This document shows positions 4,476 through 18,547 of a stretch of 64,000 bases of DNA, in pieces. Positions within the stretch are counted from its first letter, which is position 1. Each line of letters begins with the position of its first letter. The stretch lies in the IMG/VR virus record IMGVR_UViG_3300029337_000249; one strand, given 5' to 3'. Both the position numbers and the translations under genes were made by a program. The notes under the pieces are model-generated. The model was not told where the DNA came from. It made no database searches and saw only the letters and a program-made list of their open reading frames with translations. The DNA comes from a virus.

Positions 4476-5126
4476 ATGGGGAGAAAGAAAAGCAACGCAC
4501 GGATTCTGCCGCGTGGCAGGAAGATCCATGTGAACAAGTACATCAACAAGCGTGGCTGCACCAAGCATAAAAGCGCCGCCACGCATAACCACAGCACCGA
4601 AAAGCAGCAGGAAAGCAGCCACACAACTTATGACAGCTTCCCCGCTTACAACTGGCCGACGACCAGAATCCCGAAGCAGTATGAGATCTGGTTTGCAGAG
4701 CTTGGTAACCATTATGGCACCTGTGTGCAGAGTGGGAACCGTCCGGTGCTGATCCTGACAAACGATATTGCGAACCGTTATTCGCAGACCTTCACAGTTA
4801 TTCCGCTTACGAGCAAGATGAAAAAGCTCGACCTGCCAACACATATCGTGCTGACAGAAGCACATTGTGAGATGCTCAGAGCGGAACGACTGGAGGATTC
4901 CATTTTGCTGGTCGAGCAGATCACGACGATCGACCAGTCGGCACTGTTTGGACGCCTTTGCAGGGTGATCTCTGCTGAGAAAAAGCAGGAGATTGAACAG
5001 GCTGTGGCAAGGCAGTTTGATATGCACAGTACTAAGAAAAACAAACAAAATACAGACGAAAATGCTGTGCGCGGCAGCAATGCCAATTACGGCAGCAACG
5101 CTGTACACAGCAGGAAGGAGGTCTAA
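4476..5126 (+). CDS. MazF/PemK-like mRNA-interferase domain protein with basic N-terminal and disordered C-terminal extensions; no adjacent antitoxin
   Basis: Core IWFAELGNHYGTCVQSGNRPVLILTNDIANRYSQTFTVIPLTSK...THIVLTEAH fits PemK/MazF (CcdB/MazF fold) family; ATG 4476 with GAGGTGA RBS. Confidence 0.6.
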   Translation: MGRKKSNARILPRGRKIHVNKYINKRGCTKHKSAATHNHSTEKQQESSHTTYDSFPAYNWPTTRIPKQYEIWFAELGNHYGTCVQSGNRPVLILTNDIANRYSQTFTVIPLTSKMKKLDLPTHIVLTEAHCEMLRAERLEDSILLVEQITTIDQSALFGRLCRVISAEKKQEIEQAVARQFDMHSTKKNKQNTDENAVRGSNANYGSNAVHSRKEV

Positions 5127-5131
5127 CCGCT

Positions 5132-7543
5132 ATGGTGGATATCAAAAATATCCCGGCGGAGCTGAAGACCTCCTGCCGGTTTTGTGTCTGGAAATTTGAA
5201 AAGCGAAACGGTCAGAAGACCAAGATGCCGTATAACCCGGCGAATGGTGATAGAGCCAGGATCAATGATCTCCGCACCTTTGCAGATTTCAAGACTACGC
5301 TTGTCACTTATGCAATGGGCGGCTATGACGGCATCGGCATTGCTGTGGGCAGTGGCATCGGAGCTTTTGACATCGACCACTGTATCCGTGAGGACGGGAC
5401 GCTGAATGACACAGCGGACACCGTACTTTCAATCTTTCCTACAGCGTATGTAGAGAAGTCACCGTCCGGCAAAGGTCTGCGTGGATTCTTCCATGTGCCA
5501 GAAGACTACGTCTACGACAAGACGGTCTACTACATCAACAACCGCAGCAAAGGTCTGGAAGTGTATATGCCCGGTGCGACAAACCGCTTCGTCACCGTAA
5601 CGGGAGATGTTTACCGCACAGGTGAAATTCCCAACGATGAAACGGCGATGACCGCACTGCTCGATACGCTCATGAAGCGGAACAAACAGGTACAGCAGAC
5701 TCATTTTCAGCACCATTCGTATCTGGATGATGAGGCTGTCATCGCACACGCCAACGAGGCCAGCAACTCCGAAAAGTTCAAAAAGCTCTTTGCCGGTGAG
5801 TGGGAAGACCTCTACGGCAGCCAGTCGGATGCAGATATGGCGTTCCTGTCTATTCTGGCATTCTGGTGCGGCTGTGATGAGGAGCAGATGGACCGCATCT
5901 TCCGCACATCTGGTCTGATGCGCCCGAAGTGGGATCGCAAACAGGCTGGTTCAACCTACGGTGCCATCTCTATCCGCAACACAGTCAATACCTGCGCTTC
6001 CGTTTACATTCCTGTCAACGCGCAGGACATCGTGGATGAGGAGTTTGCAAATCTTGACTCTGATGATAAAGAGACGGAGCGGCCACCGGACATCAGCAAG
6101 CTCACGCTGTCGCTGGAAGAAATGGCTCCGCACACGAATCCGCGCTACGGCAGGGATGAGATTGGTTTGGGCAACATGTTCGCCGATTTTTTTAAGCCTA
6201 TTGCACGGTACAACAGTGAACGCGGCATCTGGTTTGTCTATGATGGAGTTGTCTGGCAGCCGGACATGGAGAACCTTAAGGTGGCAGAGCTTGCGAAATA
6301 TCTGGCAGATAAGCTGTATCTGTTTGCATTGAAGATTACAGAAGAAGATGTCAGAAAGCGGTTCATCGACCGCGTCCGGAAGCTCCAGCTCCGCAAGCAC
6401 CGTGACACGATGCTGAAAGACGCGAAGTCCGTATTCCCATTGTCCATGAAGCAGTACGATCAGGATATCTATCTTTTCAACTGTAAAAATGGAACACTGG
6501 ATCTGCGGACGATGGAATTCCGGGAACACCGCCCGGAGGATTTTCTCACAAAAGTGTCCCCTGTGATATATAACCCGGATGCCGACTGCCCTCGCTGGCG
6601 GACGTTCATCACGGAGATCATGCAGGGGGATAAGGCCAGAGCAGACTATCTTCAGAAGGCTATCGGATACTCGTTGACTGGTGACACACGCATGGAGTGC
6701 TTGTTTATTCTGTACGGTCCGACATCCAGAAACGGTAAGGGTACCACAATGGAGAGCATCCTGCGTATTATGGGCGAGTACGGTAAAAATGCAGATCCGA
6801 CCATGCTGCAGGCGAAGTTTAACAGCCAGAGCGGAGGACCGTCCGAGGAAATCGCCCGGCTTGCCGGCTCCCGTTTTGTAAACATCTCCGAGCCGGAGAA
6901 AAAGATCACTCTGGATGCAGCTCTTACCAAACGACTGACCGGTAACGATACGATCACAGCCCGGTATCTGCATGAGAACAGTTTTGAGTTCCGACCGAAC
7001 TTCAAAATTTTCATCAACACGAACCATCGTCCGAATATCACAGACCTTACGCTGTTTGAGTCTGGCCGAATCAAAATCATTCCGTTTGACCGGCATTTTG
7101 AAGAAAATGAACAGGATAAGGATCTAAAGTCCACTTTTGCTAAACCGGAAAATATGTCCGGCATTCTGAACTGGATGCTCGAAGGCTATAAGCTGTTCCG
7201 CAGTCAGGGACTTGCCATGCCGGATTCTGTCGTTCAGGCAACAACGGACTATCAGATATTCTCAGATAAGATGGGCCAGTTTTTTGATGAATGCATTGAA
7301 GAAAAGGAAGGGTGTGAGCTTCGGCGCGGTGCAGTTTACACACGCTACAAAGAGTGGTGTGGAGAGAATGGCTACCGGGCAGAGGCAGCCAAGAATCTCA
7401 ACCAGGAGATTGAAAAGCGGTACAAGACTGCAAGAAAGCGTCCGAATGACGGTGCCTCCAGCAGTACGACTCCGATGGTCCTGGATGTGGCGTTCACGGC
7501 AAGTGAAGAGTCAAAAGAGGACTTTGCACCATTGACATCATGA
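5132..7543 (+). CDS. phage primase-helicase (Prim-Pol domain + PriCT_1 + D5_N / P4-type SF3 helicase)
   Basis: N-terminal bifunctional primase-polymerase motifs (GIGIAVG...AFDIDH), central PriCT region (DADMAFLSILAFWCG), C-terminal Walker A LYGPTSRNGKGT and P4-family helicase block. Confidence 0.9.
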   Translation: MVDIKNIPAELKTSCRFCVWKFEKRNGQKTKMPYNPANGDRARINDLRTFADFKTTLVTYAMGGYDGIGIAVGSGIGAFDIDHCIREDGTLNDTADTVLSIFPTAYVEKSPSGKGLRGFFHVPEDYVYDKTVYYINNRSKGLEVYMPGATNRFVTVTGDVYRTGEIPNDETAMTALLDTLMKRNKQVQQTHFQHHSYLDDEAVIAHANEASNSEKFKKLFAGEWEDLYGSQSDADMAFLSILAFWCGCDEEQMDRIFRTSGLMRPKWDRKQAGSTYGAISIRNTVNTCASVYIPVNAQDIVDEEFANLDSDDKETERPPDISKLTLSLEEMAPHTNPRYGRDEIGLGNMFADFFKPIARYNSERGIWFVYDGVVWQPDMENLKVAELAKYLADKLYLFALKITEEDVRKRFIDRVRKLQLRKHRDTMLKDAKSVFPLSMKQYDQDIYLFNCKNGTLDLRTMEFREHRPEDFLTKVSPVIYNPDADCPRWRTFITEIMQGDKARADYLQKAIGYSLTGDTRMECLFILYGPTSRNGKGTTMESILRIMGEYGKNADPTMLQAKFNSQSGGPSEEIARLAGSRFVNISEPEKKITLDAALTKRLTGNDTITARYLHENSFEFRPNFKIFINTNHRPNITDLTLFESGRIKIIPFDRHFEENEQDKDLKSTFAKPENMSGILNWMLEGYKLFRSQGLAMPDSVVQATTDYQIFSDKMGQFFDECIEEKEGCELRRGAVYTRYKEWCGENGYRAEAAKNLNQEIEKRYKTARKRPNDGASSSTTPMVLDVAFTASEESKEDFAPLTS

Positions 7544-7570
7544 GCTTGAAATTCAAGGTACGGACGGATT

Positions 7571-7930
7571 TGTTGCGGCTGTTGCTGGAAGAACACAGTG
7601 AAATCTATTGTTTTTGATTTTCATAAGTTCCCATCAAAATACCAGCAACACACGACTTCGGAGTCACGTTACCAGCAACAGCAGCAACGCCCCAGCAACA
7701 GAAAAACGTAGGAAAATCAAGGGTTTTCGGTGCTGTTGCGAGTGTTGCGAGTGAAAACCCTATTTTATTTATATTATTTTCTTTTATATACTATTTACTT
7801 TTTACTAGCAACAATAGCAACAAAAGAAAAAATATAGATCTTAACACCCCTGAAAAGTGCGTAAAATCAATATTTTTGGGGACTGGACACCTCGCTTTGT
7901 GAGGAAAGCGCCAGCAACACACCAGCAACA
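7571..7930. repeat. candidate phage origin of replication: >=8 direct copies of CAGCAACA and 4 inverted TGTTGC copies flanking a ~70-bp AT-rich unwinding element (7760-7830)
   Basis: Iteron-like repeats at 7571-7590, 7641-7700, 7731-7750, 7805-7825, 7911-7930 immediately downstream of primase-helicase gene. Confidence 0.6.
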
Positions 7931-8049
7931 GATTCAGAGGACACATTGGAACTACACAATGGAACATCGCAGGCCGCTTTTGTGGGAGCCTATTTGTGGG
8001 CAAGGGCAAAGGCGGCCTGCTTTGTGATACATGAAAGAGAGGACAGAAC

Positions 8050-9117
8050 ATGAGTAAGATTATCACCTGTGAACAGGTCAGCAATGGCCATCCTGATAAG
8101 ATCTGTGACCAGATCGCAGATGCTATTGTGACCGACATTCTTCAGCATGACAGGCACGCCCGTGTGGCGATCGAGTGTCTGCTGAAAAAGAGCCAGCTTT
8201 TTATTGCCGGCGAGGTCACCACCGATTACCGGCCAAACTATCAGCAGATCGTCCACGATGTGTTCAATCGCATCGGCGCCGAAAAGCTGGGGTGGAACCT
8301 GACCGAGCTTCTTCGCATCGGCATTCTAGTGGACAAGCAGTCCCCGGACATTGCACTGGGTGTGGACAAGGGCGGTGCCGGTGACCAGGGCATCATGTAT
8401 GGCTACGCCACCAACGAGACAGCAGAGCAGATGCCGATCCCGTACATGGTTGCCACCAAGTTCCTACAGCTGCTGAAGAACCATCCGTCCAAGATGTTCC
8501 GAGCAGATGCCAAGGGGCAGGTCAGCTACGATTACGACACCGGCCGAATCACCACCTTCCTCTGCTCCGTACAGCACAGCCCGGATGTGGAGGTCAGCGA
8601 CTTCAGGCACATCATCGAATCCATGATGGTGCTTGCCGCTTGTGAGTATGGTCTGGACGGTGACTTTACGAAGCTGGTCAATCCGACCGGCCGTTTTGTG
8701 TTGGGAGGCAGCTACGCCGATTGTGGTGTGACCGGCCGGAAGCTGGCGTGCGATACCTACGGCGGCATTGGTCGCATGGGTGGCGGTGCTCTGAGCGGGA
8801 AAGACCCCACGAAGGTGGATCGCTCTGCCGCATACATGGCGAGGAAGATTGCCAAGGACATCGTGCAGGCGGGCTACGCTGACAAGTGTGAAGTCCAGCT
8901 TGCCTACGCCATCGGTGTGGTACAGCCGGTGGGTGTGGCTGTGGAATGCTTCGGTACGGAGCACCAGTCCCTCGACTTCATTGAAGCCTATGTTCATGAC
9001 AGCTACGACCTGACTCCGCAGGGTATCATCAAGCGGCTGGGACTGCTGGATGTAGACTACAACAAGGTCAGTGCCTACGGTCACTTCGGTAAGGCTGGTC
9101 TTCCGTGGGAGGAATAA
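8050..9117 (+). CDS. metK: S-adenosylmethionine synthetase (methionine adenosyltransferase), phage-encoded, compact 355-aa form
   Basis: Hallmark motifs GHPDKICDQI, GAGDQG, GGGALSGKDPTKVDRSAAY; located upstream of three DNA methyltransferases. Confidence 0.92.
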   Translation: MSKIITCEQVSNGHPDKICDQIADAIVTDILQHDRHARVAIECLLKKSQLFIAGEVTTDYRPNYQQIVHDVFNRIGAEKLGWNLTELLRIGILVDKQSPDIALGVDKGGAGDQGIMYGYATNETAEQMPIPYMVATKFLQLLKNHPSKMFRADAKGQVSYDYDTGRITTFLCSVQHSPDVEVSDFRHIIESMMVLAACEYGLDGDFTKLVNPTGRFVLGGSYADCGVTGRKLACDTYGGIGRMGGGALSGKDPTKVDRSAAYMARKIAKDIVQAGYADKCEVQLAYAIGVVQPVGVAVECFGTEHQSLDFIEAYVHDSYDLTPQGIIKRLGLLDVDYNKVSAYGHFGKAGLPWEE

Positions 9118-9120
9118 CCT

Positions 9121-9480
9121 ATGCCGTACAGACCAAAGACACCGTGCCATCACCCCGGCTGCCCGGAGCTGGTGGAAGCCGGCCGACTCTACTGTGAGAA
9201 GCACCTGCCTCTCCACCCGGAAGTCACCCGCCCGGCAGCGAAGCGTGGATACAACAGACGGTGGCAGAAAGCCAGAAAGTCGTATCTGGAAGCCCATCCG
9301 CTCTGTGTGCAGTGCGCCAAGCAGGGCAAGTACGTCCGGGCAACGGTGGTGGATCACATCATTCCGCACCGTGGTGACCAGAAACTTTTCTGGGATCAGA
9401 ACAACTGGCAGCCGCTCTGCAAGAGCTGTCACGATAAGAAGACGCTGACCGAAGACATCAACCCGATTTACACCTACTGA
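9121..9480 (+). CDS. HNH endonuclease
   Basis: CxxC...DHIIPHRGD...NWQPLCKSCHDKKT HNH/zinc motif. Confidence 0.88.
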   Translation: MPYRPKTPCHHPGCPELVEAGRLYCEKHLPLHPEVTRPAAKRGYNRRWQKARKSYLEAHPLCVQCAKQGKYVRATVVDHIIPHRGDQKLFWDQNNWQPLCKSCHDKKTLTEDINPIYTY

Positions 9481-9880
9481 CAGCCCCACCGGGGCCGGGG
9501 TCACTTCTCTACGGTGAAGTCACACGGAGACCGGTGCGCCCTTTTCTGTGAAAAACCGCAAAATTCATAGGCCGGGGGTCAGAGGATTAACGGCGCAAAA
9601 TGAAACAGGAAAATGTACAGGCATCGGAGCTTCGGTTCCGGTGCAATCCTTTTTCCCCGAAATGAACCAAAGTGTGTGAAACCTCTCGTAAACAGGGAGC
9701 TTTCGCACATTTTAGCTTGTTCCGGGAGGAGCAGGGGCGAGCGGGAATCGGCCGCCGCAACAACGATCCAACCTGGCGGGGCAGTGCCGATTTCAACTTC
9801 GCTGCTTTTCGTATGTATTTTGAAATTTTTCTAAGAAACCGCCGAAGAAACGGCGAAAAATGAGAGTGAGGTGAGGGCAG

Positions 9881-10201
9881 ATGGAAGATTACACGGCTGA
9901 GATGATCAGGGACATGGCGTTTTCCTTCTGCCCTCAGTGCGGTACGGCAATCGTACCAAGCCATAAAGGCAGACCACGGAAGTTCTGCTCACCGGAATGC
10001 CGGTCACGGTGGAACAACACCCACCCGAAACCAGAGAACTGGAAGACCGTGCGGTCAAAGATCTGTCCGGTGTGCGGCAGGGAGTTTTCCTACCGGCACC
10101 AGTATGGTCTGGAACGGAAATATTGCAGCCGTGCCTGTGCAAACAAAGGACGCTGGAAGGAGGGCGATGCAAATGGAAGGACCGCTGAACATAGAACGTG
10201 A
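9881..10201 (+). CDS. zinc-ribbon protein with two CxxCG...RKFCSxxCR units (putative regulator)
   Basis: Repeated Cys motifs FCPQCG...RKFCSPECR and CPVCG...RKYCSRAC; overlaps next gene by 35 nt in another frame. Confidence 0.5.
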   Translation: MEDYTAEMIRDMAFSFCPQCGTAIVPSHKGRPRKFCSPECRSRWNNTHPKPENWKTVRSKICPVCGREFSYRHQYGLERKYCSRACANKGRWKEGDANGRTAEHRT

Positions 10202-10667
10202 TGTGGTAAAGAATGGTGTCCGGCTGGACTGTGTGTTTGAGGGCTATGAGTACCGCCCGGAGAGAGAAGAAGTCCGAAGCCAGCGGCTTGCCGGGTTTGG
10301 ATGTGTGGAGATCGCAGAAAACACCGGGCTTTCTTTGGAACAGGTCACGGATTACTGCCGGGAACTGGGCCTGCCGGAAACGGGGAGCTGCCAGTTACAG
10401 CCACCGGATGGGTCGGGGGAACGGCGCTGTCCAGTGTGCGGACGGATTCTCGTGCAGAGAGGGAACAGTGGTCGGAGACGGTTCTGTTCTCCAGCTTGCC
10501 GGGAGGAATATTACAGGCAGCATAAGTCTTTTCGGATCGCGGTCTGTAAAAACTGTGGAAGGGAGTTCCATGCCGTAGATGAAGGAAAACGGCAGCGGAA
10601 GTTCTGCAGTCTGAATTGTTACTGGGATTATCGATACGGGATGAAGGGAGTGGATGAGGATGAGTAA
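10167..10667 (+). CDS. HTH (sigma-r4-like) + double zinc-ribbon protein, paralogous Cys units to previous gene
   Basis: ATG 10167 after GGAAGGAGGG RBS; LAGFGCVEIAENTGLSLEQVTDYCRELGL HTH then CPVCG...RRRFCSPACR and CKNCG...RKFCSLNC. Confidence 0.55.
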   Translation: MQMEGPLNIERDVVKNGVRLDCVFEGYEYRPEREEVRSQRLAGFGCVEIAENTGLSLEQVTDYCRELGLPETGSCQLQPPDGSGERRCPVCGRILVQRGNSGRRRFCSPACREEYYRQHKSFRIAVCKNCGREFHAVDEGKRQRKFCSLNCYWDYRYGMKGVDEDE

Positions 10668-10878
10668 GATTATCGGTGTGTTTCCGATGTTCAACACCGG
10701 GAGTATCTGTGTACATGCGATTGACGATGCGGAAGATAAGGTCCTGGCATCCGTGAACGGGGAAAACCCGGAATGGTGCGAGATGGCTGAACATCCGCAG
10801 GAAGATGGAGATGAGATGGAGTCGGGCTTTTTGTTCGGCTCCTTTTTCGTGCCGTTCTCCGGGGTCATGCGCATGTGA
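10660..10878 (+). CDS. hypothetical small protein (72 aa)
   Basis: ATG 10660 nine nt after AAGGGAG; acidic C-terminal region; weak. Confidence 0.35.
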   Translation: MSKIIGVFPMFNTGSICVHAIDDAEDKVLASVNGENPEWCEMAEHPQEDGDEMESGFLFGSFFVPFSGVMRM

Positions 10879-10899
10879 ATCTGAATTAGGAGGGCTTAC

Positions 10900-12168
10900 A
10901 TGAAAGCGACTGCTGAACTGAAGATGCTGCCGGTGTCCGTACTTAAGCCGGCCGCATACAATCCCCGGAAAAAGCTGAAGCCGGGGGACAAAGAGTACGA
11001 GAAGATCAAGAACTCCATCACGGAGTTCGGGTTCGCAGATCCTTTGGTGGTCAATGCCGATATGACAATCATCGGCGGCCACCAGAGATTGACCGTAGCG
11101 ATGGAGCTGGGCTATACCGAAGTGCCTTGTGCGGTGGTGGACATCGACAAGACCAGGGAAAAAGCCCTGAACATTGCGCTCAATAAGATCACGGGTGCAT
11201 GGGATGATTCCCTGCTGGCTGATCTTTTGAAGGACATCGAGGATTCTAACTTCGACCTTGGCAAGACCGGCTTTGATCCCCCTGAGATCGAGACGCTGTT
11301 CAACAAGGTCCACAGTAAGGAAGTCAAGGAAGATGACTTCGATGTGGAATCGGAACTGAAGCAACCGTGCTTTTCCAAAGAGGGCGACCTCTGGCATCTG
11401 GGAAAGCACATCGTTCTGTGCGGGGATTCCACCAAAGCAGAATGCTATGACACTCTGATGGATGGCGTGAAAGCCAACCTTGTGCTTTCGGACCCTCCGT
11501 ACAATGTGGACGTGGAAGAAACCGCTGGCAAGATCCTGAACGACAACATGGGCGATTCGGAATTCTACGAGTTTCTGCTGTCGGCATTCAAACAGATGCA
11601 TGACCATCTGGCGGACGATGGCTCCATCTATATCTTTCATGCCGACACCGAAGGATTGAACTTCCGAAAGGCGTTCAAGGATGCCGGGTTCTATCTGTCC
11701 GGGTGCTGTATCTGGAAGAAGAATGCGCTGGTGCTGGGCCGCAGTCCTTACCAGTGGCAGCACGAACCGTGTCTCTACGGCTGGAAGCAGAAGGGGAAGC
11801 ACCAGTGGTATTCCGACCGGAAGCAGACGACCATATGGGAGTATGACCGGCCGAAGTCCAACAAGGACCATCCGACCATGAAGCCCATCGGTCTGATGAG
11901 CTATCCGATTCGCAATTCCACTATGACCAACGGCATCGTGCTTGATCCGTTCCTCGGCAGTGGCTCGACACTGATCGCCTGCGAAGAGACCGACCGTGTG
12001 TGCCGGGGCATCGAGCTAGACCCGAAGTTCGTGGATGTCATCGTGAAGCGGTACATCGAACACAGCGATGGTCACTACGATGATGTGTTTGTTGTCCGTG
12101 ACGGCCAGAAGCTGAAGTTCGAGGAAGTGGCAACCTTCGAGCCGGAAAGCGAGAATGCCGATGCCTGA
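10900..12168 (+). CDS. ParB-like nuclease N-terminal domain fused to N6-adenine/N4-cytosine DNA methyltransferase
   Basis: N-term ParB/Srx block (MTIIGGHQRLTVAMELGYTEVPCAVVD), catalytic DPPY motif (VLSDPPYN) and SAM-binding DPFLGSGST. Confidence 0.9.
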   Translation: MKATAELKMLPVSVLKPAAYNPRKKLKPGDKEYEKIKNSITEFGFADPLVVNADMTIIGGHQRLTVAMELGYTEVPCAVVDIDKTREKALNIALNKITGAWDDSLLADLLKDIEDSNFDLGKTGFDPPEIETLFNKVHSKEVKEDDFDVESELKQPCFSKEGDLWHLGKHIVLCGDSTKAECYDTLMDGVKANLVLSDPPYNVDVEETAGKILNDNMGDSEFYEFLLSAFKQMHDHLADDGSIYIFHADTEGLNFRKAFKDAGFYLSGCCIWKKNALVLGRSPYQWQHEPCLYGWKQKGKHQWYSDRKQTTIWEYDRPKSNKDHPTMKPIGLMSYPIRNSTMTNGIVLDPFLGSGSTLIACEETDRVCRGIELDPKFVDVIVKRYIEHSDGHYDDVFVVRDGQKLKFEEVATFEPESENADA

Positions 12169-12934
12169 TGTGAAATGTGTCCTCATCCACGACAACTTCC
12201 AGAACTTCAAGTCCTATAACATCCCCAAGGCGCAGCTGGTGATCGCAGATATTCCGTACAACATCGGTACAGATTTCTATGCCAGCCGGCCGGATTGGTA
12301 TGTGGATGGCGACAACAAAAACGGGGAGAGCAGCAAGGCGAGGAAGGCGGCGTTCAATACCGACTTCACCTTCAACATTGCAGAGTATTTCCACTTCTGC
12401 AACCGACTGTTGAAGAAAGAACCCGGCACAGGAGAGAAGGATGCACCGTGCATGATCGTGTTCTGCGCGTTCCAGCAGATCCCGAAGGTGATCACAGAAG
12501 CTGAAAAATACGGCTTCAAGAATTATATCCCTCTGGTGTTCTGCAAGAACTACAGTCCGCAGGTGCTCAAAGCCAACATGAAGATCGTGGGTGCAACGGA
12601 GTATGCTCTGGTTCTGTACCGGGGAAAGCTCCCGAAGTTCCGTAATCTCGGTGAGGACGGAAAGCCTCATATGATCTTCAACTGGTTTGACTGGAAGCGG
12701 GATGGCAGGGAATATCCGAAAATCCATCCTTCCCAGAAACCGATCTCCGTGCTGAAACGACTGATCGAGACCTTTACAGATGAGGGCGATGTGGTCATTG
12801 ACCCCTGCGCCGGCAGCGGCTCCACGCTGAGAGCAGCAAGAGAACTGGGGCGCAACAGCTACGGATTTGAAGTATCCAGAGATTTTTACCGGAAAGCAAA
12901 TGAGCAGATGCTCGGAGAGGAGGTCGCCGGATGA
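12155..12934 (+). CDS. DNA methyltransferase (N6A/N4C family, DxPY variant DIPY)
   Basis: ADIPYNIG catalytic motif, HPSQKP, DPCAGSGST SAM-binding motif. Confidence 0.85.
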   Translation: MPMPDVKCVLIHDNFQNFKSYNIPKAQLVIADIPYNIGTDFYASRPDWYVDGDNKNGESSKARKAAFNTDFTFNIAEYFHFCNRLLKKEPGTGEKDAPCMIVFCAFQQIPKVITEAEKYGFKNYIPLVFCKNYSPQVLKANMKIVGATEYALVLYRGKLPKFRNLGEDGKPHMIFNWFDWKRDGREYPKIHPSQKPISVLKRLIETFTDEGDVVIDPCAGSGSTLRAARELGRNSYGFEVSRDFYRKANEQMLGEEVAG

Positions 12935-15162
12935 GCACAGAACAGAATAAGACTTTGACCCTCGGCAGCCTCTTTGATGGCTCCGGGGGTTTTCCATTGG
13001 GCGGTCTGTTGACCGGGCAGATCACTCCGGTGTGGAGCAGCGAGATCGAGCCGTTTGCCATCCGGGTCACGACGAAGCGTCTGCCGCAGGTGAAACACTA
13101 CGGAGATGTGTCTGCCATCAGTGGAGCAGACCTGCCGCCCGTGGACATTATCACCTTTGGCAGTCCCTGTCAGGATATGTCCATCGCTGGTAAGCGGGAC
13201 GGTCTGGATGGTTCACGGTCCAGTCTGTTTTACGAAGCAATCCGAATCGTGAAGGAAATGAGGTGCAAGACCAATGGAGAAAAACCAAGATTTATCGTGT
13301 GGGAGAATGTGCCAGGGGCCTTCTCTTCAAACAAGGGACAGGACTTCAAAGCAGTCCTCGAAGCCGTCATCGGTGTTAAAGAACCGGCCGCCTCGGTGCC
13401 TGCGCCTGAGAAGAAAGGATGGCCCGACGCTGACTACTACGTGGGAGACGGATGGAGCGTCGCGTATCGAGTTCTTGATGCACAATGGTGGGGCGTTCCC
13501 CAAAGAAGAAAACGTATCTACCTTGTCGCAGATTTTGCAGACCAGAGTGCCCCAAAGGTACTATTTGAGTCCGAAGGCGTGTCTCGGTATTCTGCGGAGA
13601 GCTTCCGTGCGTGGCAAAGAGCTGCCGCCTGTGCTGAAAGAAGCATTGGAGAGACAGGCTGCGGAAACGGAAGAATCGTCTTGAATGATCAGGGTGGAGC
13701 ACAGATGGATGTATCCCATGAAGTGACCGGGACGCTCCGGGCAGAGGATCATGGGCATCCACCCTGCGTTATGGAGGCGGCAGGCTTCTGCACTGAACAC
13801 TCCGCCAATGCCAGAAGCATCGGGTACGAGGAAGAACGCTCACCGACACTCCGGGCCGGTGTGGTTCCGGCCGCCATTGCACTGGAAAATCATCCTGCGG
13901 ACAGCCGGGTGAAGATTTCCGAGGATGGCAAGGTGCAGACGCTGACCAGCCGGTGCGGTACAGGCGGCGGCAATGTTCCGCTGGTCATGGGAGTTGAAAA
14001 CTCTGTGGAAAGCCCGGTGAAAGATGTTGAAAACTCCCCGGCGGTCACACTGAAGATCCGCTCTGGATGTGATGGAGGCGGAAAGGGCGCGATCTGGCAA
14101 GAGGAAAAATCGGCAACTCTGGGCTGCAACAATGACCAGACGCTGTTCGTTCCGAAAGCCTACGGTGTCTGTTCCAAGGCAAGCCACTCCATGATGAGTG
14201 ACAATCCGCACAGCGGTTTCTATGAAGCCAGCACCTCTCGGACACTCGACCGCAGCGGTGGTGACCCGACCTGCAATCAGGGAGGGCTGTGCATCTGTGA
14301 ACCTGTTGTCTGCGTGGATCAGGGTGGCGGAAAGTCGAACTGCACGGTGGACGAACAGGTGGCACCGCCTTTGTCCTGTACCCACGGCGGCGCACCGGCA
14401 GTGGCTTTTACCCAGAATCAGCGGGATGAAGTCCGGGATCTGGGAGATAAGTCAGCAGCACTGGCAGCAGAGCCGGGGATGAAGCAGCAGACCTTCGTGG
14501 CACAGCCGGAAGATGTGACCGCATTCCACGTAAATCAGCGCAATGAGCTGATCGACCTGCATGGAAAGTCCGGCGCACTCATGGCGACCCGGAGCGACCA
14601 GATGCAGACCTTTGTGCTGCAGGGCAACATGATCGGCCGCAAGGACGAGAACGGCCCGCAGGGGGATGGGGTCAATGAGGATGTCTGCTTCACGCTGGAT
14701 GCCACTGACCGCCATGCAGTCTGTGTCCCGGAAAGCGTCTATGCCATGACTACCGGCTCCTATATGCAGGTGGAGAAAGAGGTTGCGCCGACCTTGATGG
14801 CACGGGACTACAAAGACCCGACCACCATTGCACCGGTGCCGCAGGATGTCAGCTACACAGTCCGCCGACTGACACCAATCGAATGCGCCCGGTTGCAGGG
14901 CTTTCCGGACTGGTGGTGCAGTGACCTCGGCGCGGAGAATCCGACCGATGAAGAGCTGGCATTCTGGGCAGATGTGTTTGAAACACACCGCAGGATCGTG
15001 ACGCAGGCGAAGAAACCAAAGACAGAGAAACAGATCCGCAAATGGCTGGCTGACCCGTATTCGGATGCGGCAGAGTACAAACTCTGGGGCAACGGCGTGG
15101 CACTGCCCTGTGTTTACTTCGTTCTGGCCGGCATCGCATGGTACGCAGGTCTGGAAGAATAA
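12931..15162 (+). CDS. DNA (cytosine-5)-methyltransferase, unusually long (743 aa) with large repetitive variable region
   Basis: Motif I FDGSGG, motif IV GSPCQDMS, motif VI ENV, QRRKR, C-terminal RRLTPIECARLQGFPDWW; ~430-aa insert containing many T-L dipeptide segments and an internal tandem repeat (AFTQNQRDEVRDLGDKSAAL / AFHVNQRNELIDLHGKSGAL). Confidence 0.9.
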   Translation: MSTEQNKTLTLGSLFDGSGGFPLGGLLTGQITPVWSSEIEPFAIRVTTKRLPQVKHYGDVSAISGADLPPVDIITFGSPCQDMSIAGKRDGLDGSRSSLFYEAIRIVKEMRCKTNGEKPRFIVWENVPGAFSSNKGQDFKAVLEAVIGVKEPAASVPAPEKKGWPDADYYVGDGWSVAYRVLDAQWWGVPQRRKRIYLVADFADQSAPKVLFESEGVSRYSAESFRAWQRAAACAERSIGETGCGNGRIVLNDQGGAQMDVSHEVTGTLRAEDHGHPPCVMEAAGFCTEHSANARSIGYEEERSPTLRAGVVPAAIALENHPADSRVKISEDGKVQTLTSRCGTGGGNVPLVMGVENSVESPVKDVENSPAVTLKIRSGCDGGGKGAIWQEEKSATLGCNNDQTLFVPKAYGVCSKASHSMMSDNPHSGFYEASTSRTLDRSGGDPTCNQGGLCICEPVVCVDQGGGKSNCTVDEQVAPPLSCTHGGAPAVAFTQNQRDEVRDLGDKSAALAAEPGMKQQTFVAQPEDVTAFHVNQRNELIDLHGKSGALMATRSDQMQTFVLQGNMIGRKDENGPQGDGVNEDVCFTLDATDRHAVCVPESVYAMTTGSYMQVEKEVAPTLMARDYKDPTTIAPVPQDVSYTVRRLTPIECARLQGFPDWWCSDLGAENPTDEELAFWADVFETHRRIVTQAKKPKTEKQIRKWLADPYSDAAEYKLWGNGVALPCVYFVLAGIAWYAGLEE

Positions 15163-15385: not shown

Positions 15386-16558
15386 ATGTTGAAATTTAAA
15401 CTGAACGTAGCCGAGAGAAAGACCCTCGCAAAACGCATGGAGGAGCTGACCGGCATCCACCCTTACTATACCAAAGCACCTCTGTATTCTTACGACATCG
15501 GGAGCTACACCATCGACCGGAATGGCAACCTTCTGGTCGAGCCGGAGAATGCAGATGCCGAGCTGCTGACGACCCTGCTGAATGAGGGACTGATCCGCGG
15601 CGGCGAGAGTATTGAGAGCACGGATGACCAGCCGGAGGACACAGAGCTGACAGCGGATATGGATGAGGAGCCTGTGACCGAAGCGGAAACTGAGCAGATG
15701 CCCGAAGCAGAGCTGGAGGTTCTGGACGAGCAGGAATCCGAAGATGCAAGTACCGCAGAAGCCGAATCCGAGGATGCATTGGAGCCGGATAATGCGGCAG
15801 AGGATGAGCCGGATGCAGAGGGGCCGGAAAGCGAGGAGCAATCAGAAGCAGAAGACCAGCCGGAAGAGGTGCCGCTGGACTTGGAACTTGCATTCCCGGT
15901 CAGCCAGCACAACGGTGTGACTCTCCGCAACCTGGTCAACCTTCTTTACAGCCGCGGCAAGCTCATCGGCAAGGCGACTGGCGGAAACTTCCATGTGGAA
16001 GAGGGACTGGTGGAGAAGCTGAAAGACGATAGCTGCACCTTTGCCATCATGAACTTCATCAACGCGGTAAGCGACTATGAGGTTGAGCATGGTGCTGCAC
16101 TGGAAGGCCTGAAGATTACCACCGAGAAGGTCACCTTCACCGGCTTCCCGACCGCACCGGACCACGAACACCTGACGGCTTTTGCACAGCTGGCGGTGCT
16201 GATGAACCAGCAGGCGATCAGCCAGAAGCGTATCCAGGCAAAGGATGTCAACGATGAGAATGAGAAATACGCACTCCGCACATGGCTCCTGCGGCTGGGG
16301 ATGAACGGTCCGGACTTCAAAGAAACACGCAAGATCCTCATGGAGAATCTTTCCGGCCATGCGGCTTTCCGCACGGATGAGGAAGCACAGAAGTTCCTCG
16401 CAAGGGAAAAGGCAAAACGGGATGCCCTGAAAGCCGCGAAACAGGCGGCACAGGAGGGCAGTGCCTCCGCAGGGGAAACGATCGCATCAGCAGATGCCGA
16501 GCCGACACAGCCCGACTGTGGGGCAGACACGGCGCAGATGCTGGAGGCGGGAGCGTAA
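15386..16558 (+). CDS. acidic protein: N-terminal ~70-aa domain, ~110-aa D/E-rich disordered linker, C-terminal domain homologous to the C-terminal half of the adjacent amidoligase (lacks catalytic N-terminal motifs)
   Basis: AAGGAG RBS; C-terminal TLRNLVNLLYSRGKLIGKA..KVTFTGF..AFAQLAVLMNQ..KYALRTWLLRLG aligns with amidoligase TIRNLVNIMAAHEQQIGRA..TIEFRLF..AYIQLCLAMSQ..KYAMRCWMLRLG. Confidence 0.65.
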   Translation: MLKFKLNVAERKTLAKRMEELTGIHPYYTKAPLYSYDIGSYTIDRNGNLLVEPENADAELLTTLLNEGLIRGGESIESTDDQPEDTELTADMDEEPVTEAETEQMPEAELEVLDEQESEDASTAEAESEDALEPDNAAEDEPDAEGPESEEQSEAEDQPEEVPLDLELAFPVSQHNGVTLRNLVNLLYSRGKLIGKATGGNFHVEEGLVEKLKDDSCTFAIMNFINAVSDYEVEHGAALEGLKITTEKVTFTGFPTAPDHEHLTAFAQLAVLMNQQAISQKRIQAKDVNDENEKYALRTWLLRLGMNGPDFKETRKILMENLSGHAAFRTDEEAQKFLAREKAKRDALKAAKQAAQEGSASAGETIASADAEPTQPDCGADTAQMLEAGA

Positions 16559-16714
16559 GCTCCCAAGCTCCCAATGGGGGACGGAAAATATGCGAGACCC
16601 TCTTTCATTGTAACGATATTAACTCTGAAAATGTACATTATCAAGCGGATAAACTGCAGAAATGTACACGATCATTCCTCTCGATATTTGTCGAATATAT
16701 GTTCTTTTATGGCC

Positions 16715-16743
16715 TTGCTATTATGTGCACCTGACGGTAATAT
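16715..16743 (+). promoter_or_regulatory. repeated promoter cassette copy (-35 TTGCTA 16715-20, 17-nt spacer, -10 TAATAT 16738-43) driving amidoligase gene
   Basis: Consensus-like sigma-70 spacing; conserved flanks GGCCTTGCTAT and CACATACCGAAAGGGA shared with 7 other copies; two AAATGTACA half-sites upstream (16631-16675). Confidence 0.55.
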
Positions 16744-16790
16744 GCACATACCGAAAGGGAAAACAAGGAAAAAACAAAGGAGAACATACC

Positions 16791-17729
16791 ATGAACGATA
16801 AAACAAGAGAGCAGATTGAAGCCATGAAGAACCAGACCATCGGAGTTGAGATCGAGATGAACAACATCACCAGAGAAAAAGCGGCAAGAAAGGTCGCGGA
16901 GTACTTCGGAACCAGAGCATGGAACGCCGCCGGCGAGTACGGATATTACAGCTGGGCTTGCAAGGACCAGCAGGGCAGGGTTTGGAAATTCCAGAGGGAT
17001 GTGAGCATCTACGGACCGGACGCAGAAAAATGCGAACTGGTCACCCCGATCCTCACCTACGACGACATCGAAACCTTGCAGGAGATTATCCGGCTGCTCC
17101 GAAAGGCAGGCGCAAAGAGCGGCCCAAGCCGCGGATGCGGAGTCCACATCCACATCGGCAAAGGGGACCACACCGCAAAGACCATCCGCAACCTTGTGAA
17201 CATCATGGCGGCACACGAACAGCAGATCGGCAGAGCCATCCGGATTGACGCAGGGCGCACCGGACAATATTGCCAGGTGGTCAATCACCGCTTCCTCGAC
17301 CGGCTGAACCGTGAGAAGCCGACCACCATGCGCAAGCTGGAAGACATCTGGTACGAAGGCAACGGTTCCAGCTGGGAAAACCGGAATGCCCACTACAATT
17401 CAAGCCGGTACCATATGCTGAACCTCCATGCCACCTTCACGAAAGGGACCATTGAATTCCGCCTTTTCCAATTCGCAGACCCAGCGGACGGAAAGCGCAA
17501 CGGACTGCACGCCGGTGAGATGAAAGCCTACATCCAGCTTTGCCTCGCAATGAGCCAGCTTGCCAAGATGGTCAGAACGGCAAGCCCGAAGCCCCAGCAG
17601 ACCGACAACGAAAAGTACGCCATGCGGTGCTGGATGCTGAGGCTGGGATTCATCGGGGATGAATTTGCAACGGCAAGGGAGATCCTTCTGCGGAACATGG
17701 AGGGCAACGCATCCTGGCGGAACAAATAA
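16791..17729 (+). CDS. amidoligase (Amidoligase_2 / GCS2-glutamine-synthetase-like carboxylate-amine ligase family)
   Basis: N-terminal GVEIEMN and HIHIG motifs, ELRLF-like TIEFRLF block typical of phage/Firmicutes putative amidoligase family; neighbourhood with AIG2/GGCT genes as described for this family. Confidence 0.8.
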   Translation: MNDKTREQIEAMKNQTIGVEIEMNNITREKAARKVAEYFGTRAWNAAGEYGYYSWACKDQQGRVWKFQRDVSIYGPDAEKCELVTPILTYDDIETLQEIIRLLRKAGAKSGPSRGCGVHIHIGKGDHTAKTIRNLVNIMAAHEQQIGRAIRIDAGRTGQYCQVVNHRFLDRLNREKPTTMRKLEDIWYEGNGSSWENRNAHYNSSRYHMLNLHATFTKGTIEFRLFQFADPADGKRNGLHAGEMKAYIQLCLAMSQLAKMVRTASPKPQQTDNEKYAMRCWMLRLGFIGDEFATAREILLRNMEGNASWRNK

Positions 17730-17796
17730 GCCGGGATGCACGGGCACCTTTTGGGCGGGCAACCGCCCTTGAGGTGGTAGAAGGAGGTGCAGGTTT

Positions 17797-18033
17797 ATGA
17801 AAAGCACGTTAAAAAATGAAAACACACCGGGCGGCAGAGCCTTTAAGGTGACCATCACCGAGACCTACCAGAGGACGGTGACCATTTATGAATCCGAGAT
17901 GAAAGAGCCGACCGTGGAGGAAGCCCAGCGTGTGGCAGAGGACTGGTGGCGGGACAGCCAGATCGAGCTTGGGAAAGAGGATTTCCAGGGCGTGGAGTTC
18001 ACTGGCAGGGAGGACGGTGAGGCAGATGTTTGA
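17797..18033 (+). CDS. small protein (78 aa) between amidoligase and GGCT genes; possible substrate/partner
   Basis: AGGAGG RBS (17776-17786); stop overlaps next ATG; no domain. Confidence 0.5.
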   Translation: MKSTLKNENTPGGRAFKVTITETYQRTVTIYESEMKEPTVEEAQRVAEDWWRDSQIELGKEDFQGVEFTGREDGEADV

Positions 18034-18547
18034 ACTGATCAGCCGAAACCCATCCAGATATTATCTTGCCTACGGAAGCAACCTCGACATGGAACGGATG
18101 GGAAAGAGATGCCCTTACGCTGTGGTGGTCGGCACGACCGAGATCATGGGCTACCGGCTCCTGTTCAAAAAGAGTAAGACCGGCTGCTATGCCACCATCG
18201 AGCAGGATGCCAATGAAAGCGTACCGGCGGTGGTCTGGAAGCTCTCGGAATACGATGAGCTCCTGCTGGACCGATACGAAGGCTGCCCAAGATACTATTA
18301 TAAGAAGCAGTTCCAGCTTCCGGTCTGGAACCTGAACGGGAACCGCATGAAAAAGGCAAAGCCCTGCATCGCTTATGTGATGCACGAGGATCGGAGGCTT
18401 GGCTGCCCGGATGCCGAGTATTTTGAACTGCTGCGTGGCGGATACAGCGACTGGGAATTTCCGCTGGACACACTGAAGCGTGGACTGGCAGCCAGCATCG
18501 GAAGGGCGGAAGCCATCCGGTATCTGAAGAAGCGGCAGATGATGTAA
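18026..18547 (+). CDS. gamma-glutamyl cyclotransferase-like (AIG2/GGCT family) protein 1
   Basis: Signature YLAYGSNL near N-terminus and conserved catalytic Glu context (VWKLSEYDELLLDRYEG). Confidence 0.8.
   Translation: MFELISRNPSRYYLAYGSNLDMERMGKRCPYAVVVGTTEIMGYRLLFKKSKTGCYATIEQDANESVPAVVWKLSEYDELLLDRYEGCPRYYYKKQFQLPVWNLNGNRMKKAKPCIAYVMHEDRRLGCPDAEYFELLRGGYSDWEFPLDTLKRGLAASIGRAEAIRYLKKRQMM

What the first reader, a model, noticed from the sequence alone, without database searches (positions are those of the whole stretch)
8050..15162. Phage-encoded SAM synthetase (metK) immediately upstream of three DNA methyltransferases
A complete but compact MetK (all hallmark motifs present) lies in a prophage next to an HNH endonuclease and three DNA methyltransferases: a ParB-fused N6/N4 MTase, a second DIPY-type MTase and a 743-aa C5 MTase. 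The phage therefore appears to carry its own methyl-donor supply line alongside a battery of self-methylation enzymes. This is a coherent anti-restriction module. It may also counter host defenses that act by depleting or sensing SAM.

Phage metK genes are uncommon, and physical linkage to three MTases is notable.
Basis: partly seen in the sequence, partly recalled or inferred. Interest (0 to 1): 0.7.

Follow-up and report, generated by a model that had tools for sequence, protein, structure and literature searches.

The report
Phage SAM synthetase beside DNA methyltransferases
A temperate gut-bacterial phage carries its own gene for making the methyl donor SAM next to three DNA-methylase genes, probably to fuel self-methylation against host restriction enzymes, but this gene set is common and already described for this phage lineage.

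Summary
ORF 8050-9117 is an intact, compact MetK. It has all three MAT domains, passes the NCBIfam metK equivalog cut-off, keeps 15/15 catalytic residues and shows dN/dS of 0.02-0.12. It is followed by an HNH endonuclease, two Zn-ribbon ORFs, a ParB-fused beta-class MTase, a second beta-class MTase and a 743-aa C5 MTase. All sit in a temperate siphophage that is 98 % identical (MetK) to a Clostridium fessum prophage.

The novelty claim is wrong. The same block occurs in over 100 GenBank phages (Streptococcus Javan, phiNJ3 and phi1207.3; Ca. Heliusvirales gut phages) and in at least 402 IMG/VR contigs. De Jonge et al. 2024 reported metK in 58.9 % and C5 MTase in 67 % of Heliusvirales genomes and proposed an anti-restriction role.

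The SAM-supply-for-self-methylation reading remains the best explanation, but it is inferred, not shown. No evidence supports a counter to SAM-depleting or SAM-sensing defences. The HNH resembles packaging-type phage HNH enzymes, not a restriction partner.

One side result may be new. The C5 MTase variable region is an array of 25-40-aa cassettes that are present or absent among near-identical phages. This suggests a highly multispecific enzyme.

The parts
8050..9117 (+). metK: compact (355 aa) S-adenosylmethionine synthetase / methionine adenosyltransferase
   Evidence: Three MAT Pfam domains. TIGR01034 equivalog scores 393 bits against a cut-off of 309. E 1.5e-92 to E. coli MetK. All 15 catalytic or ligand residues are invariant. 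dN/dS is 0.02-0.12 against relatives. phrog_1569 matches at 2.5e-133.
9121..9480 (+). Small HNH endonuclease (119 aa). It starts 4 nt after the metK stop codon, so the two genes are probably translationally coupled.
   Evidence: PF01844 at 3.2e-10. phrog_144 at 4.6e-38. The only PDB match is 5H0M, the Geobacillus virus E2 HNH endonuclease, at 1.8e-13. It follows metK in nearly all relatives.
9621..9644 (+). Terminator-like hairpin (10-bp stem, T run) after the metK-HNH pair
   Evidence: This is a consensus match only. The total count of such sites in the region is not above the shuffled expectation.
9881..10201 (+). Zn-ribbon ORF (106 aa), phrog_2308-type
   Evidence: Conserved in synteny.
10104..10667 (+). 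Second Zn-ribbon ORF (187 aa), phrog_2308-type. It overlaps the previous ORF in another frame, so its true start may lie further downstream.
   Evidence: Variably conserved among relatives.
10818..10842 (+). Terminator-like hairpin just upstream of the MTase genes
   Evidence: consensus match only.
10900..12168 (+). ParB_N-fused beta-class amino-MTase (422 aa). Motif IV is SDPPY and lies before motif I (FLGSGS). It is probably an N6-adenine MTase.
   Evidence: PF02195 plus PF01555. phrog_498 at 3.9e-187. The motifs were read from the translation. Homologues are annotated as 'adenine-specific methyltransferase' in Javan55, phiNJ3 and phi1605.
12155..12934 (+). Second beta-class amino-MTase (259 aa). 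Motif IV is DIPY and motif I is CAGSGS. It overlaps the previous gene by 14 nt. It is an accessory cassette, absent from about half of the close relatives.
   Evidence: PF01555 at 1.4e-24. phrog_67. Presence or absence among relatives is shown.
12931..15162 (+). C5-cytosine MTase (743 aa) with a roughly 440-aa variable region between motif VIII and motif IX. The variable region is built of TL-motif cassettes. The gene overlaps the previous one by 4 nt.
   Evidence: PF00145 at 2.9e-42. TIGR00675 scores 143.7 bits against a cut-off of 100.65. M.HhaI aligns to motifs I-VI, VIII and IX. Internal repeats. Cassette presence/absence among relatives.

Best explanation
The region is the DNA-modification block of a temperate siphophage of Clostridia. 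Its TerL is about 76 % identical to the metK-carrying Streptococcus Javan prophages, and it shares this block's gene order with gut phages that GenBank classifies as Ca. Heliusvirales.

The phage encodes an active SAM synthetase that converts host methionine and ATP into SAM. It also encodes three MTases with no recognisable restriction partner: a ParB-fused beta-class adenine MTase, an accessory second beta-class MTase, and a C5 MTase with many target-recognition cassettes.

During lytic replication the MTases methylate many sites on every new genome copy. The extra MetK keeps the SAM supply from limiting this. Progeny DNA is therefore protected from a range of host Type II restriction systems.

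Shown here: gene identities, intact catalytic residues, purifying selection and conserved linkage. Inferred: enzyme activity, timing of expression, SAM limitation and protection from restriction.
For: MetK looks functional.
- All three domains are present and the equivalog score is above the cut-off.
- 15/15 catalytic residues are invariant in 20 compact and 73 cellular MetKs.
- dN/dS is 0.02-0.12.

The linkage is conserved.
- MetK-HNH-Zn-ParB-MTase-(MT2)-C5-MTase recurs in essentially every IMG/VR relative with enough flank, at 72-99 % MetK identity.
- It recurs in prophages in bacterial genomes.
- It recurs in Streptococcus phages Javan55 and phiNJ3 and in an Evtepia phage, at 56-61 % identity.
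- Phages with a different, long (about 390 aa) MetK place it directly against a ParB-MTase: Erysipelothrix phi1605, an Anaerosphaera phage and NatCom_35866. In 72 loci with cellular-type metK in bacterial chromosomes (<=49 % identity to the window MetK), none of the window's other module proteins lies within 10 kb; the two further 'MetK only' loci carry compact MetK.

The MTase genes overlap each other by 14 and 4 nt.

The C5 MTase has a roughly 440-aa cassette-built variable region that differs among near-identical phages. This implies many target sites and a high methyl demand.

The genome shows strong palindrome avoidance. AAGCTT, CCCGGG, CTCGAG and GTCGAC occur 0 times against 8-21 expected, and GGCC has a ratio of 0.45. 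This indicates real restriction pressure.

The published view is the same (PMC11283538).
Against: - No experiment links phage MetK to methylation or restriction escape. The only functional study (S. agalactiae prophage 12/111phiA) found aggregation, glycocalyx and biofilm phenotypes in lysogens (PMC8223999).
- MetK is dispensable for the lineage. 41 % of Heliusvirales genomes lack it, while 67 % carry a C5 MTase.
- Two terminator-like hairpins lie between metK-HNH and the MTases. Co-transcription is therefore not established.
- SAM is also a cofactor for Type I R-M and BREX defence. Raising SAM is not unambiguously pro-phage.
- The MTase specificities are unknown.
Confidence: 0.55

Rival explanations
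1. Lysogenic-conversion (moron) function. The prophage MetK is expressed in the lysogen and raises host SAM. This alters host physiology (AI-2 and polyamine pathways, cell wall, aggregation, biofilm) to the benefit of the host-prophage pair. The MTase linkage would be secondary.
For: [quoted passage not shown] Plasmid-borne metK partly restored these traits (PMC8223999). metK-HNH is bracketed by an intergenic repeat region and a terminator-like hairpin, which is compatible with an independent transcription unit.
Against: metK sits inside the co-oriented replication-to-packaging gene train, not at a prophage end where morons usually lie. Its tight and repeated linkage with ParB-MTases across two MetK types is not explained by a host-physiology role. 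Complementation in the cited study was partial and confounded by secondary mutations. The two roles are not mutually exclusive.
Confidence: 0.2
2. Counter-defence against SAM depletion or SAM sensing. The phage MetK would restore SAM removed by a host defence or by a competing phage's SAM lyase. Alternatively, it would be a MetK variant insensitive to inhibitors that target host MetK.
For: The compact clade lacks four surface segments of cellular MetK (E. coli 109-115, 154-157, 177-179 and the C-terminal 371-384). This could change regulation or inhibitor binding. The T3 SAM lyase is known to act on both SAM and host MetK (10.1101/2023.02.27.530186).
Against: No SAM-depleting bacterial defence turned up in the literature searches. 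Known SAM-linked defences (Type I R-M, BREX) need SAM, so phages gain by destroying it, not by making it. The compact MetK form also occurs as an ordinary chromosomal gene in Oribacterium parvum and in another Clostridia MAG. Compactness is therefore not a phage-specific adaptation.
Confidence: 0.05
3. The HNH and the MTases form a phage-borne restriction-modification (addiction or superinfection-exclusion) system. MetK would serve host-genome methylation to prevent self-restriction.
For: The authors of the S. agalactiae study annotated the homologous endonuclease and MTases as a putative R-M system. Some Type II REases are small HNH proteins (my own knowledge).
Against: The HNH's only solved relative is the Geobacillus virus E2 HNH endonuclease (5H0M, 1.8e-13). 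It belongs to generic phage HNH families (phrog_144/2323/589). From my own knowledge, 5H0M is a terminase-associated, packaging-type HNH. One 119-aa HNH cannot be the cognate of three or more MTase specificities. The MT2 and TRD cassettes vary while the HNH stays constant.
Confidence: 0.07
4. MetK supplies SAM for a different phage pathway. Candidates are a DNA or protein hypermodification route involving the downstream amidoligase/GGCT genes or the Nmad4 protein, or polyamine synthesis for DNA packaging.
For: The block p390 - Amidoligase_2 - 2 x GGCT (15386-19157) is syntenic with the MetK/MTase block in most relatives. A Nucleotide-modification-associated domain 4 protein lies at 23196-23480.
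Against: None of these families is known to use SAM. No radical-SAM enzyme, SAM decarboxylase or other SAM-dependent enzyme was found among the window ORFs scanned. Streptococcus phages keep MetK and the MTases without the amidoligase block.
Confidence: 0.08

Closest known systems
Ca. Heliusvirales gut phages and their 'auxiliary' gene pair metK (K00789) + dcm (K00558) (de Jonge et al., Nat Commun 2024, PMC11283538)
   Same: Temperate phages predicted to infect Firmicutes, as here. The gene order MetK-HNH-Zn-finger-ParB-MTase-C5-MTase-amidoligase-GGCT ahead of the terminase matches Evtepia phage NatCom_42594, which GenBank labels Heliusvirales. That paper reports metK in 58.9 % and C5 MTase in 67 % of 1,032 genomes and suggests an anti-R-M role.
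   Different: Nothing essential differs. This window's phage has an extra beta-class MTase and a particular cassette set in the C5 MTase. The paper lists the genes as AMGs without analysing their linkage, MetK compactness or C5 MTase architecture.
Streptococcus 'group-A'/Javan prophages and related elements (12/111phiA, Javan55, phiNJ3, phi1207.3)
   Same: Compact MetK (345-349 aa, 55-57 % identical) followed by an HNH, a ParB-type adenine MTase and often a C5 MTase. TerL is about 76 % identical. They are annotated as S-adenosylmethionine synthetase in GenBank.
   Different: Their C5 MTase is short (about 417 aa, single TRD) and there is no amidoligase/GGCT block. For 12/111phiA a host-phenotype role of metK was shown experimentally.
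Multispecific C5-MTases of Bacillus phages SPR, phi3T, rho11s and H2 (Trautner and colleagues; references listed in PMC7544214)
   Same: A single C5 catalytic core with several target-recognising domains arranged in tandem between motifs VIII and IX, used by temperate phages for self-protection (my own knowledge). The window enzyme has the same layout, with TL-containing cassettes of 25-40 aa.
   Different: The variable region here is about twice as long (about 440 aa; 393-521 aa in relatives). It showed no match at E <= 1e-3 in any record named as a Bacillus phage. Multiple specificities have not been demonstrated.
Phage T3 SAM lyase (SAMase)
   Same: A phage gene that manipulates the host SAM pool in the context of restriction and BREX (10.1101/2023.02.27.530186).
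   Different: The strategy is opposite. T3 destroys SAM and inhibits host MetK to disable SAM-dependent defences. This phage makes SAM, presumably to feed its own MTases.
ParB-CTPase-fold / N6_N4 MTase fusions of phages (PNAS 2025, PMC12704722)
   Same: The domain architecture is the same as 10900-12168. These fusions are reported as enriched in phages and prophage regions, with a suggested anti-defence role.
   Different: No biochemical function has been assigned to the phage fusions. Linkage to metK is not mentioned in the passages read.

Membership tests
S-adenosylmethionine synthetase (MetK/MAT; TIGR01034, PF00438 + PF02772 + PF02773) | Three MAT domains in order, covering the full length | tested here: met
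   The N, M and C domains cover residues 4-99, 108-216 and 218-354, each above the gathering score.
S-adenosylmethionine synthetase (MetK/MAT; TIGR01034, PF00438 + PF02772 + PF02773) | Score above the curated equivalog cut-off | tested here: met
   393 bits against a cut-off of 309.4.
S-adenosylmethionine synthetase (MetK/MAT; TIGR01034, PF00438 + PF02772 + PF02773) | Catalytic and ligand residues (E. coli H14, D16, E42, E55, Q98, I102, D118, K165, F230, D238, R244, K245, K265, K269, D271) | tested here: met
   All 15 are identical in the window protein and in all 20 compact-clade members. The choice of residues comes from my own knowledge of the E. coli enzyme.
S-adenosylmethionine synthetase (MetK/MAT; TIGR01034, PF00438 + PF02772 + PF02773) | Methionine adenosyltransferase activity | not testable with these tools
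   This needs complementation or an enzyme assay. Purifying selection (dN/dS 0.02-0.12) is indirect support.
Beta-class amino (N6A/N4C) DNA MTases (PF01555) | Pfam match above threshold, with motif IV ((D/S)PP(Y/F)-like) preceding motif I (FxGxG) | tested here: met
   10900-12168: 103.7 bits, SDPPY followed by FLGSGS. 12155-12934: 87.7 bits, DIPY followed by CAGSGS. DIPY is a non-canonical motif IV. The base specificity is not determined.
C5-cytosine DNA MTases (PF00145 / TIGR00675) | Conserved motifs I (FxGxG), IV (PCQ), VI (ENV), VIII (QxRxR), IX and X | tested here: met
   FDGSGG, GSPCQ, ENV, QRRKR, RRLTPIECARLQGFP and GNGVALP were read in the translation. M.HhaI aligns to motifs I-VI, VIII and IX. 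TIGR00675 scores 143.7 against a cut-off of 100.65.
Multispecific phage C5 MTases (SPR/phi3T type) | Several independent TRDs in tandem in the variable region | tested here: inconclusive
   The variable region is about 440 aa with nine matches to a [STPAG]L-x(2-8)-G pattern in residues 201-660. Three internal repeat pairs score 53, 43 and 37, against a shuffled maximum with mean 27.6 and largest 44. Discrete 25-40-aa cassettes are present or absent among relatives. Whether each cassette is a functional TRD is unknown.
Multispecific phage C5 MTases (SPR/phi3T type) | Sequence homology of the TRDs to the Bacillus phage enzymes | tested here: not met
   tblastn of the variable region found 39 phage records, with no record named as a Bacillus phage among the listed hits at E <= 1e-3.
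Multispecific phage C5 MTases (SPR/phi3T type) | Methylation of several unrelated target sequences by one polypeptide | not testable with these tools
   Needs methylome mapping of the expressed enzyme.
Ca. Heliusvirales | Placement inside the order in the TerL phylogeny (the criterion used in PMC11283538) | tested here: inconclusive
   No tree was built. TerL is about 76 % identical to the MetK-bearing Streptococcus Javan prophages. The modification block is syntenic with GenBank records labelled Ca. Heliusvirales.
Restriction-modification system | A cognate restriction endonuclease encoded next to the MTase(s) | tested here: not met
   The only nuclease in the block is a 119-aa HNH. Its sole solved relative is the phage GVE2 HNH (5H0M), and it belongs to generic phage HNH PHROGs. 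No other nuclease family was found between 8050 and 15162.
Packaging-associated phage HNH endonucleases (HK97 gp74 / GVE2 type) | Sequence similarity to characterised members | tested here: met
   5H0M at 1.8e-13.
Packaging-associated phage HNH endonucleases (HK97 gp74 / GVE2 type) | Gene adjacent to the terminase genes | tested here: not met
   The HNH ends at 9480 and TerS starts at 24182. In Javan55 the distance is about 4 kb. The MTase and amidoligase blocks lie in between.

The most novel reading that the evidence does not exclude
The 743-aa C5 MTase would be a hyper-multispecific enzyme. Its 25-40-aa target-recognition cassettes would be shuffled among otherwise near-identical phages to track the restriction repertoires of different host strains. 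The phage MetK, repeatedly and independently placed next to the ParB-MTase, would exist because this very heavy methylation load makes SAM (or the SAM/SAH ratio) limiting during the burst. Together this would be a dedicated, tunable 'methylation factory' rather than a loose collection of auxiliary genes.
Probability: 0.25. Interest if true: 0.5.

Novelty: already known. Interest (0 to 1): 0.2.

Why it matters
If the supply-line idea were shown experimentally, it would explain why SAM synthetase is one of the most abundant 'auxiliary metabolic genes' in gut and digester viromes. It would recast that gene as an anti-restriction accessory rather than a metabolic gene. It would also stand as the mirror image of the T3 SAM-lyase strategy. 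As an observation, however, this window adds nothing new: the gene set, its frequency and the anti-restriction hypothesis are already in GenBank annotations and in the Heliusvirales paper. The cassette-type variable region of the C5 MTase is the one aspect that may merit follow-up by restriction-modification specialists.

Tried and rejected
- SAM riboswitch or other RNA element upstream of metK: an Rfam gathering scan of the whole window gave no hit.
- sigma-70-type promoter upstream of metK on the + strand: none found.
- 'Helicobacter phage' MetK hits as further phage examples: rejected. In H. pylori, metK is the host gene flanking the prophage integration hotspot (PMC11321410).
- Compactness as a phage-specific adaptation: rejected. 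Compact MetK (352-356 aa) sits among TrkH/TrkA, PGK and glycosyltransferase genes in Oribacterium parvum and in a Clostridia MAG.
- Self-BLASTP of the C5 MTase found no off-diagonal hits. A windowed BLOSUM62 dot-plot with a shuffle control was needed to see the repeats.
- Homology of the C5 variable region to Bacillus phage multispecific MTases: not found.
- Literature search for experimentally characterised 'phage-encoded MetK / SAM synthetase': one incidental mention only.
- Search for SAM-depleting defence systems: none retrieved.
- Structure prediction and the large representative-protein search were not run. Sequence homology to solved MetK structures was already decisive.

Full report
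**1. Observation**

| Coordinates | Product | Evidence |
|---|---|---|
| 8050-9117 | MetK | three MAT domains: 1.3e-25, 3.9e-24, 1.4e-55 |
| 9121-9480 | HNH endonuclease | 3.2e-10 |
| 10900-12168 | ParB_N + N6_N4_Mtase | 1.3e-08, 1.8e-29 |
| 12155-12934 | N6_N4_Mtase | 1.4e-24 |
| 12931-15162 | C5 DNA_methylase | 2.9e-42 |

Two Zn-ribbon ORFs (9881-10201 and 10104-10667) lie between the HNH and the MTases.

The window is a temperate siphophage. It encodes an SNF2 helicase, a MazF-like protein, a D5-type primase/helicase, TerS, TerL, portal, major head protein, a 1984-aa ORF in the tape-measure position, endolysin and large serine recombinases. Every family-assigned gene from 182 to 58512 lies on the + strand. 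The nearest genome copy of the MetK locus is a prophage in Clostridium fessum SNUG30386, with MetK 98 % identical and the same neighbours.

metK is not 'immediately' upstream of the MTases. About 1.8 kb, three ORFs and two terminator-like hairpins lie in between.

**2. Is the MetK real and functional?**

- It matches E. coli MetK structures at E 1.5e-92 over its full length.
- It exceeds the NCBIfam metK equivalog cut-off, 393 against 309.4 bits.
- I aligned 20 compact and 73 cellular MetKs taken from the fetched loci. All 15 residues that bind Mg/K, methionine, adenine or triphosphate in the E. coli enzyme are invariant.
- The protein is short because of four deletions: the loop after the gating loop (E. 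coli 109-115), residues 154-157, residues 177-179, and the C-terminal helix (371-384).
- The compact proteins (345-363 aa) form one clade in a midpoint-rooted neighbour-joining (NJ) tree.
- dN/dS against relatives at 72-98 % identity is 0.02-0.12.

The gene is therefore under strong purifying selection and is very probably an active SAM synthetase.

Compactness is not a phage invention. The same short form is an ordinary chromosomal gene next to trkH/trkA and pgk in Oribacterium parvum, and next to glycosyltransferase genes in a Clostridia MAG.

**3. How common is it?**

- The protein matches phrog_1569 at 2.5e-133.
- tblastn finds it in 139 GenBank phage records. Ninety are Streptococcus prophages, and those listed are annotated 'S-adenosylmethionine synthetase' or 'methionine adenosyltransferase'.
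- A narrow pattern scan finds 402 IMG/VR contigs.
- One 90 %-identity cluster in the protein collection holds 5,635 member sequences.
- The Helicobacter hits are not phage genes. They are the host metK at a prophage attachment hotspot.
- De Jonge et al. 2024 report K00789 (metK) in 58.9 % and K00558 (C5 MTase) in 67 % of 1,032 Ca. Heliusvirales genomes. They suggest these genes help against restriction-modification.
- A 2026 digester virome study lists K00789 as the single most abundant viral AMG in pig and chicken manure digesters.

**4. Linkage**

I ran tblastn with the window's proteins against the viral and GenBank loci fetched by then (83 loci). The order MetK-HNH-Zn-ParB-MTase-(MT2)-C5-MTase-p390-amidoligase-GGCT appears in essentially all relatives that have enough flank, down to 72 % MetK identity. 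The core MetK-HNH-Zn-ParB-MTase, with or without a C5 MTase, appears in Javan55, phiNJ3, an Evtepia phage and prophages in other genomes, at 55-62 % identity.

MT2 is an accessory gene, absent from about half of the close relatives.

Phages that carry a long, cellular-type MetK (about 390 aa, 40-42 % identical) place it directly against a ParB-type MTase. These are Erysipelothrix phi1605, an Anaerosphaera phage and NatCom_35866. By contrast, 72 chromosomal loci with cellular-type metK (<=49 % identity to the window MetK) show none of the window's other module proteins nearby; the two further 'MetK only' loci are the chromosomal compact forms noted above. Recurrence of the pairing with two MetK types is the best evidence that MetK and the MTase are functionally coupled.

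TerL is about 76 % identical to that of the MetK-bearing Javan prophages.

**5. The other components**

*HNH.* It starts 4 nt after the metK stop codon. Its only solved relative is the Geobacillus virus E2 HNH endonuclease (5H0M, 1.8e-13). It falls in generic phage HNH PHROGs. From my own knowledge, the GVE2 enzyme is terminase-associated, so I read the window's HNH as a packaging-type phage HNH rather than a restriction partner. It lies 15 kb from TerS, so that role is not proven either.

*The two beta-class MTases.* Motif IV (SDPPY, DIPY) lies ahead of motif I. ParB-N6_N4 MTase fusions are already described as phage-enriched (PMC12704722).

*The C5 MTase.* It has all the core motifs. About 440 residues separate motif VIII from motif IX, against about 100 in M.HhaI.

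- This region contains many TL-type motifs.
- Three internal repeat pairs score above or near the shuffle maximum: 53, 43 and 37, against a shuffled mean of 27.6 and a largest value of 44.
- Among relatives whose catalytic N-terminus is 92-100 % identical (all but three of 60), protein length varies from 709 to 824 aa; the full set spans 696-824 aa.
- The alignment shows that the length differences are clean presence/absence of 25-40-aa blocks.

This is the layout of the classical multispecific phage C5 MTases. The region is longer here, however, and I detected no homology to Bacillus phage enzymes. Multispecificity is an inference.

**6. Mechanism**

The best-supported reading is as follows. 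During replication the phage methylates its progeny DNA at many adenine and cytosine sites with MTases that have no recognisable restriction partner. The extra MetK keeps SAM from limiting this.

For scale only, I counted sites for six C5 specificities (several of them, from memory, reported for multispecific phage MTases) plus GATC. That gives about 2,900 methyl groups per 58.5-kb genome copy. A low-specificity adenine enzyme would need thousands more.

The genome is clearly under restriction pressure.

- Several 6-bp palindromes are absent: AAGCTT, CCCGGG, CTCGAG and GTCGAC occur 0 times against 8-21 expected.
- GGCC, ACGT and CGCG occur at 0.37-0.46 of expectation.
- CCGG, AGCT and TCGA are not avoided.

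Enzyme activities, expression timing, SAM limitation and protection from restriction are all inferred.

Evidence against this reading:

- The only genetic study of a homologous prophage metK found host aggregation and biofilm phenotypes.
- 41 % of the lineage lacks metK.
- Possible terminators separate metK from the MTases.
- SAM is also needed by Type I R-M and BREX.

**7. Rivals**

- A lysogenic-conversion role is real for at least one relative and may coexist with the main explanation.
- A counter to SAM-depleting or SAM-sensing defences has no support.
- An R-M or addiction system is unlikely, given the nature of the HNH and the variable MTase content.
- A SAM requirement of the neighbouring amidoligase/GGCT or Nmad4 genes is not supported by what is known of those families. 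Streptococcus phages keep MetK and the MTases without them.

**8. Verdict**

The finding is ordinary for this phage lineage. The cassette-built C5 MTase and the repeated MetK-ParB-MTase pairing are the only points that might reward further work.

Noticed in passing
window 7543-8050 (repeats 7580-7930): The intergenic region between the D5-type primase/helicase gene and metK holds all six exact copies of CCAGCAACA in the 64-kb window. They occur in both orientations, with further GCAACA sub-units, and flank an AT-rich stretch (about 7755-7850). This looks like an iteron array, meaning a replication origin or operator.
   Followed up: partly
window 13540-14850 (C5 MTase residues about 205-640); loci L005, L010, L014, L033, L050, L066, L070, L072: The variable region of the C5 MTase differs among near-identical phages by clean presence or absence of 25-40-aa blocks. 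Total protein length ranges from 696 to 824 aa while the catalytic N-terminus stays 92-100 % identical in all but three of 60 loci. This suggests shuffling of target-recognition cassettes.
   Followed up: partly
window 15386-19157: A conserved block follows the MTases: a 390-aa acidic protein (phrog_2443 N-terminal part), an Amidoligase_2 enzyme (16662-17729) and two AIG2/gamma-glutamyl-cyclotransferase-like proteins (17930-18547 and 18576-19157). It is syntenic in most gut relatives and absent from the Streptococcus phages. Its function is unknown.
   Followed up: partly
window 19154-23480: Small genes carrying DUF4314 (19154-19621), DUF3846 (19522-19989) and a 'Nucleotide modification associated domain 4' (Nmad4, 23196-23480) lie just upstream of TerS. 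Nmad4 hints at a further DNA-modification function.
   Followed up: no
window 1-58512 (whole phage part): Strong palindrome avoidance. AAGCTT, CCCGGG, CTCGAG and GTCGAC occur 0 times (8-21 expected), GGATCC once and CCATGG twice. GGCC, ACGT and CGCG are at 0.37-0.46 of expectation, while CCGG, AGCT and TCGA are not avoided. The non-avoided sites might be the ones covered by the phage MTases.
   Followed up: partly
L087 9998-11056 (Oribacterium parvum ACB1); L091 10001-11071 (Clostridia MAG): Compact-type MetK (352 and 356 aa, 59 % and 52 % identical) sits in ordinary chromosomal neighbourhoods (trkH/trkA, pgk; glycosyltransferases) with no phage genes nearby. Either the phage gene came from such hosts, or a phage-derived copy has been domesticated.
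   Followed up: partly
L165 6968-10001 (Erysipelothrix phage phi1605); L166 6818-9363; L167 6983-9371: In these phages a long, cellular-type MetK (about 390-435 aa as annotated) abuts or overlaps a ParB-type MTase gene of about 410 aa. The MetK-ParB-MTase pairing therefore exists with two different MetK lineages.
   Followed up: partly
window 53817-58512 and 59950-63467: Two adjacent large serine recombinases (786 and 766 aa) end the phage. They are followed by an IstB/DnaC-like ATPase, a third serine recombinase (60941-62782) and further ORFs. This may be a second mobile element or a multi-recombinase integration module.
   Followed up: no
window 4410-5126: A MazF-like growth-inhibitor homologue (phrog_1936, 6.9e-22) lies directly upstream of the primase/helicase gene. 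It is also present in the Evtepia phage, upstream of metK.
   Followed up: no
proteins P0001, P0002, P0011: Some database relatives of the MetK are longer gene calls: 476 aa with an HNH domain, 599 aa, and 429 aa with PF20441. These are probably read-through or mis-called fusions with neighbouring genes. They were not examined.
   Followed up: no
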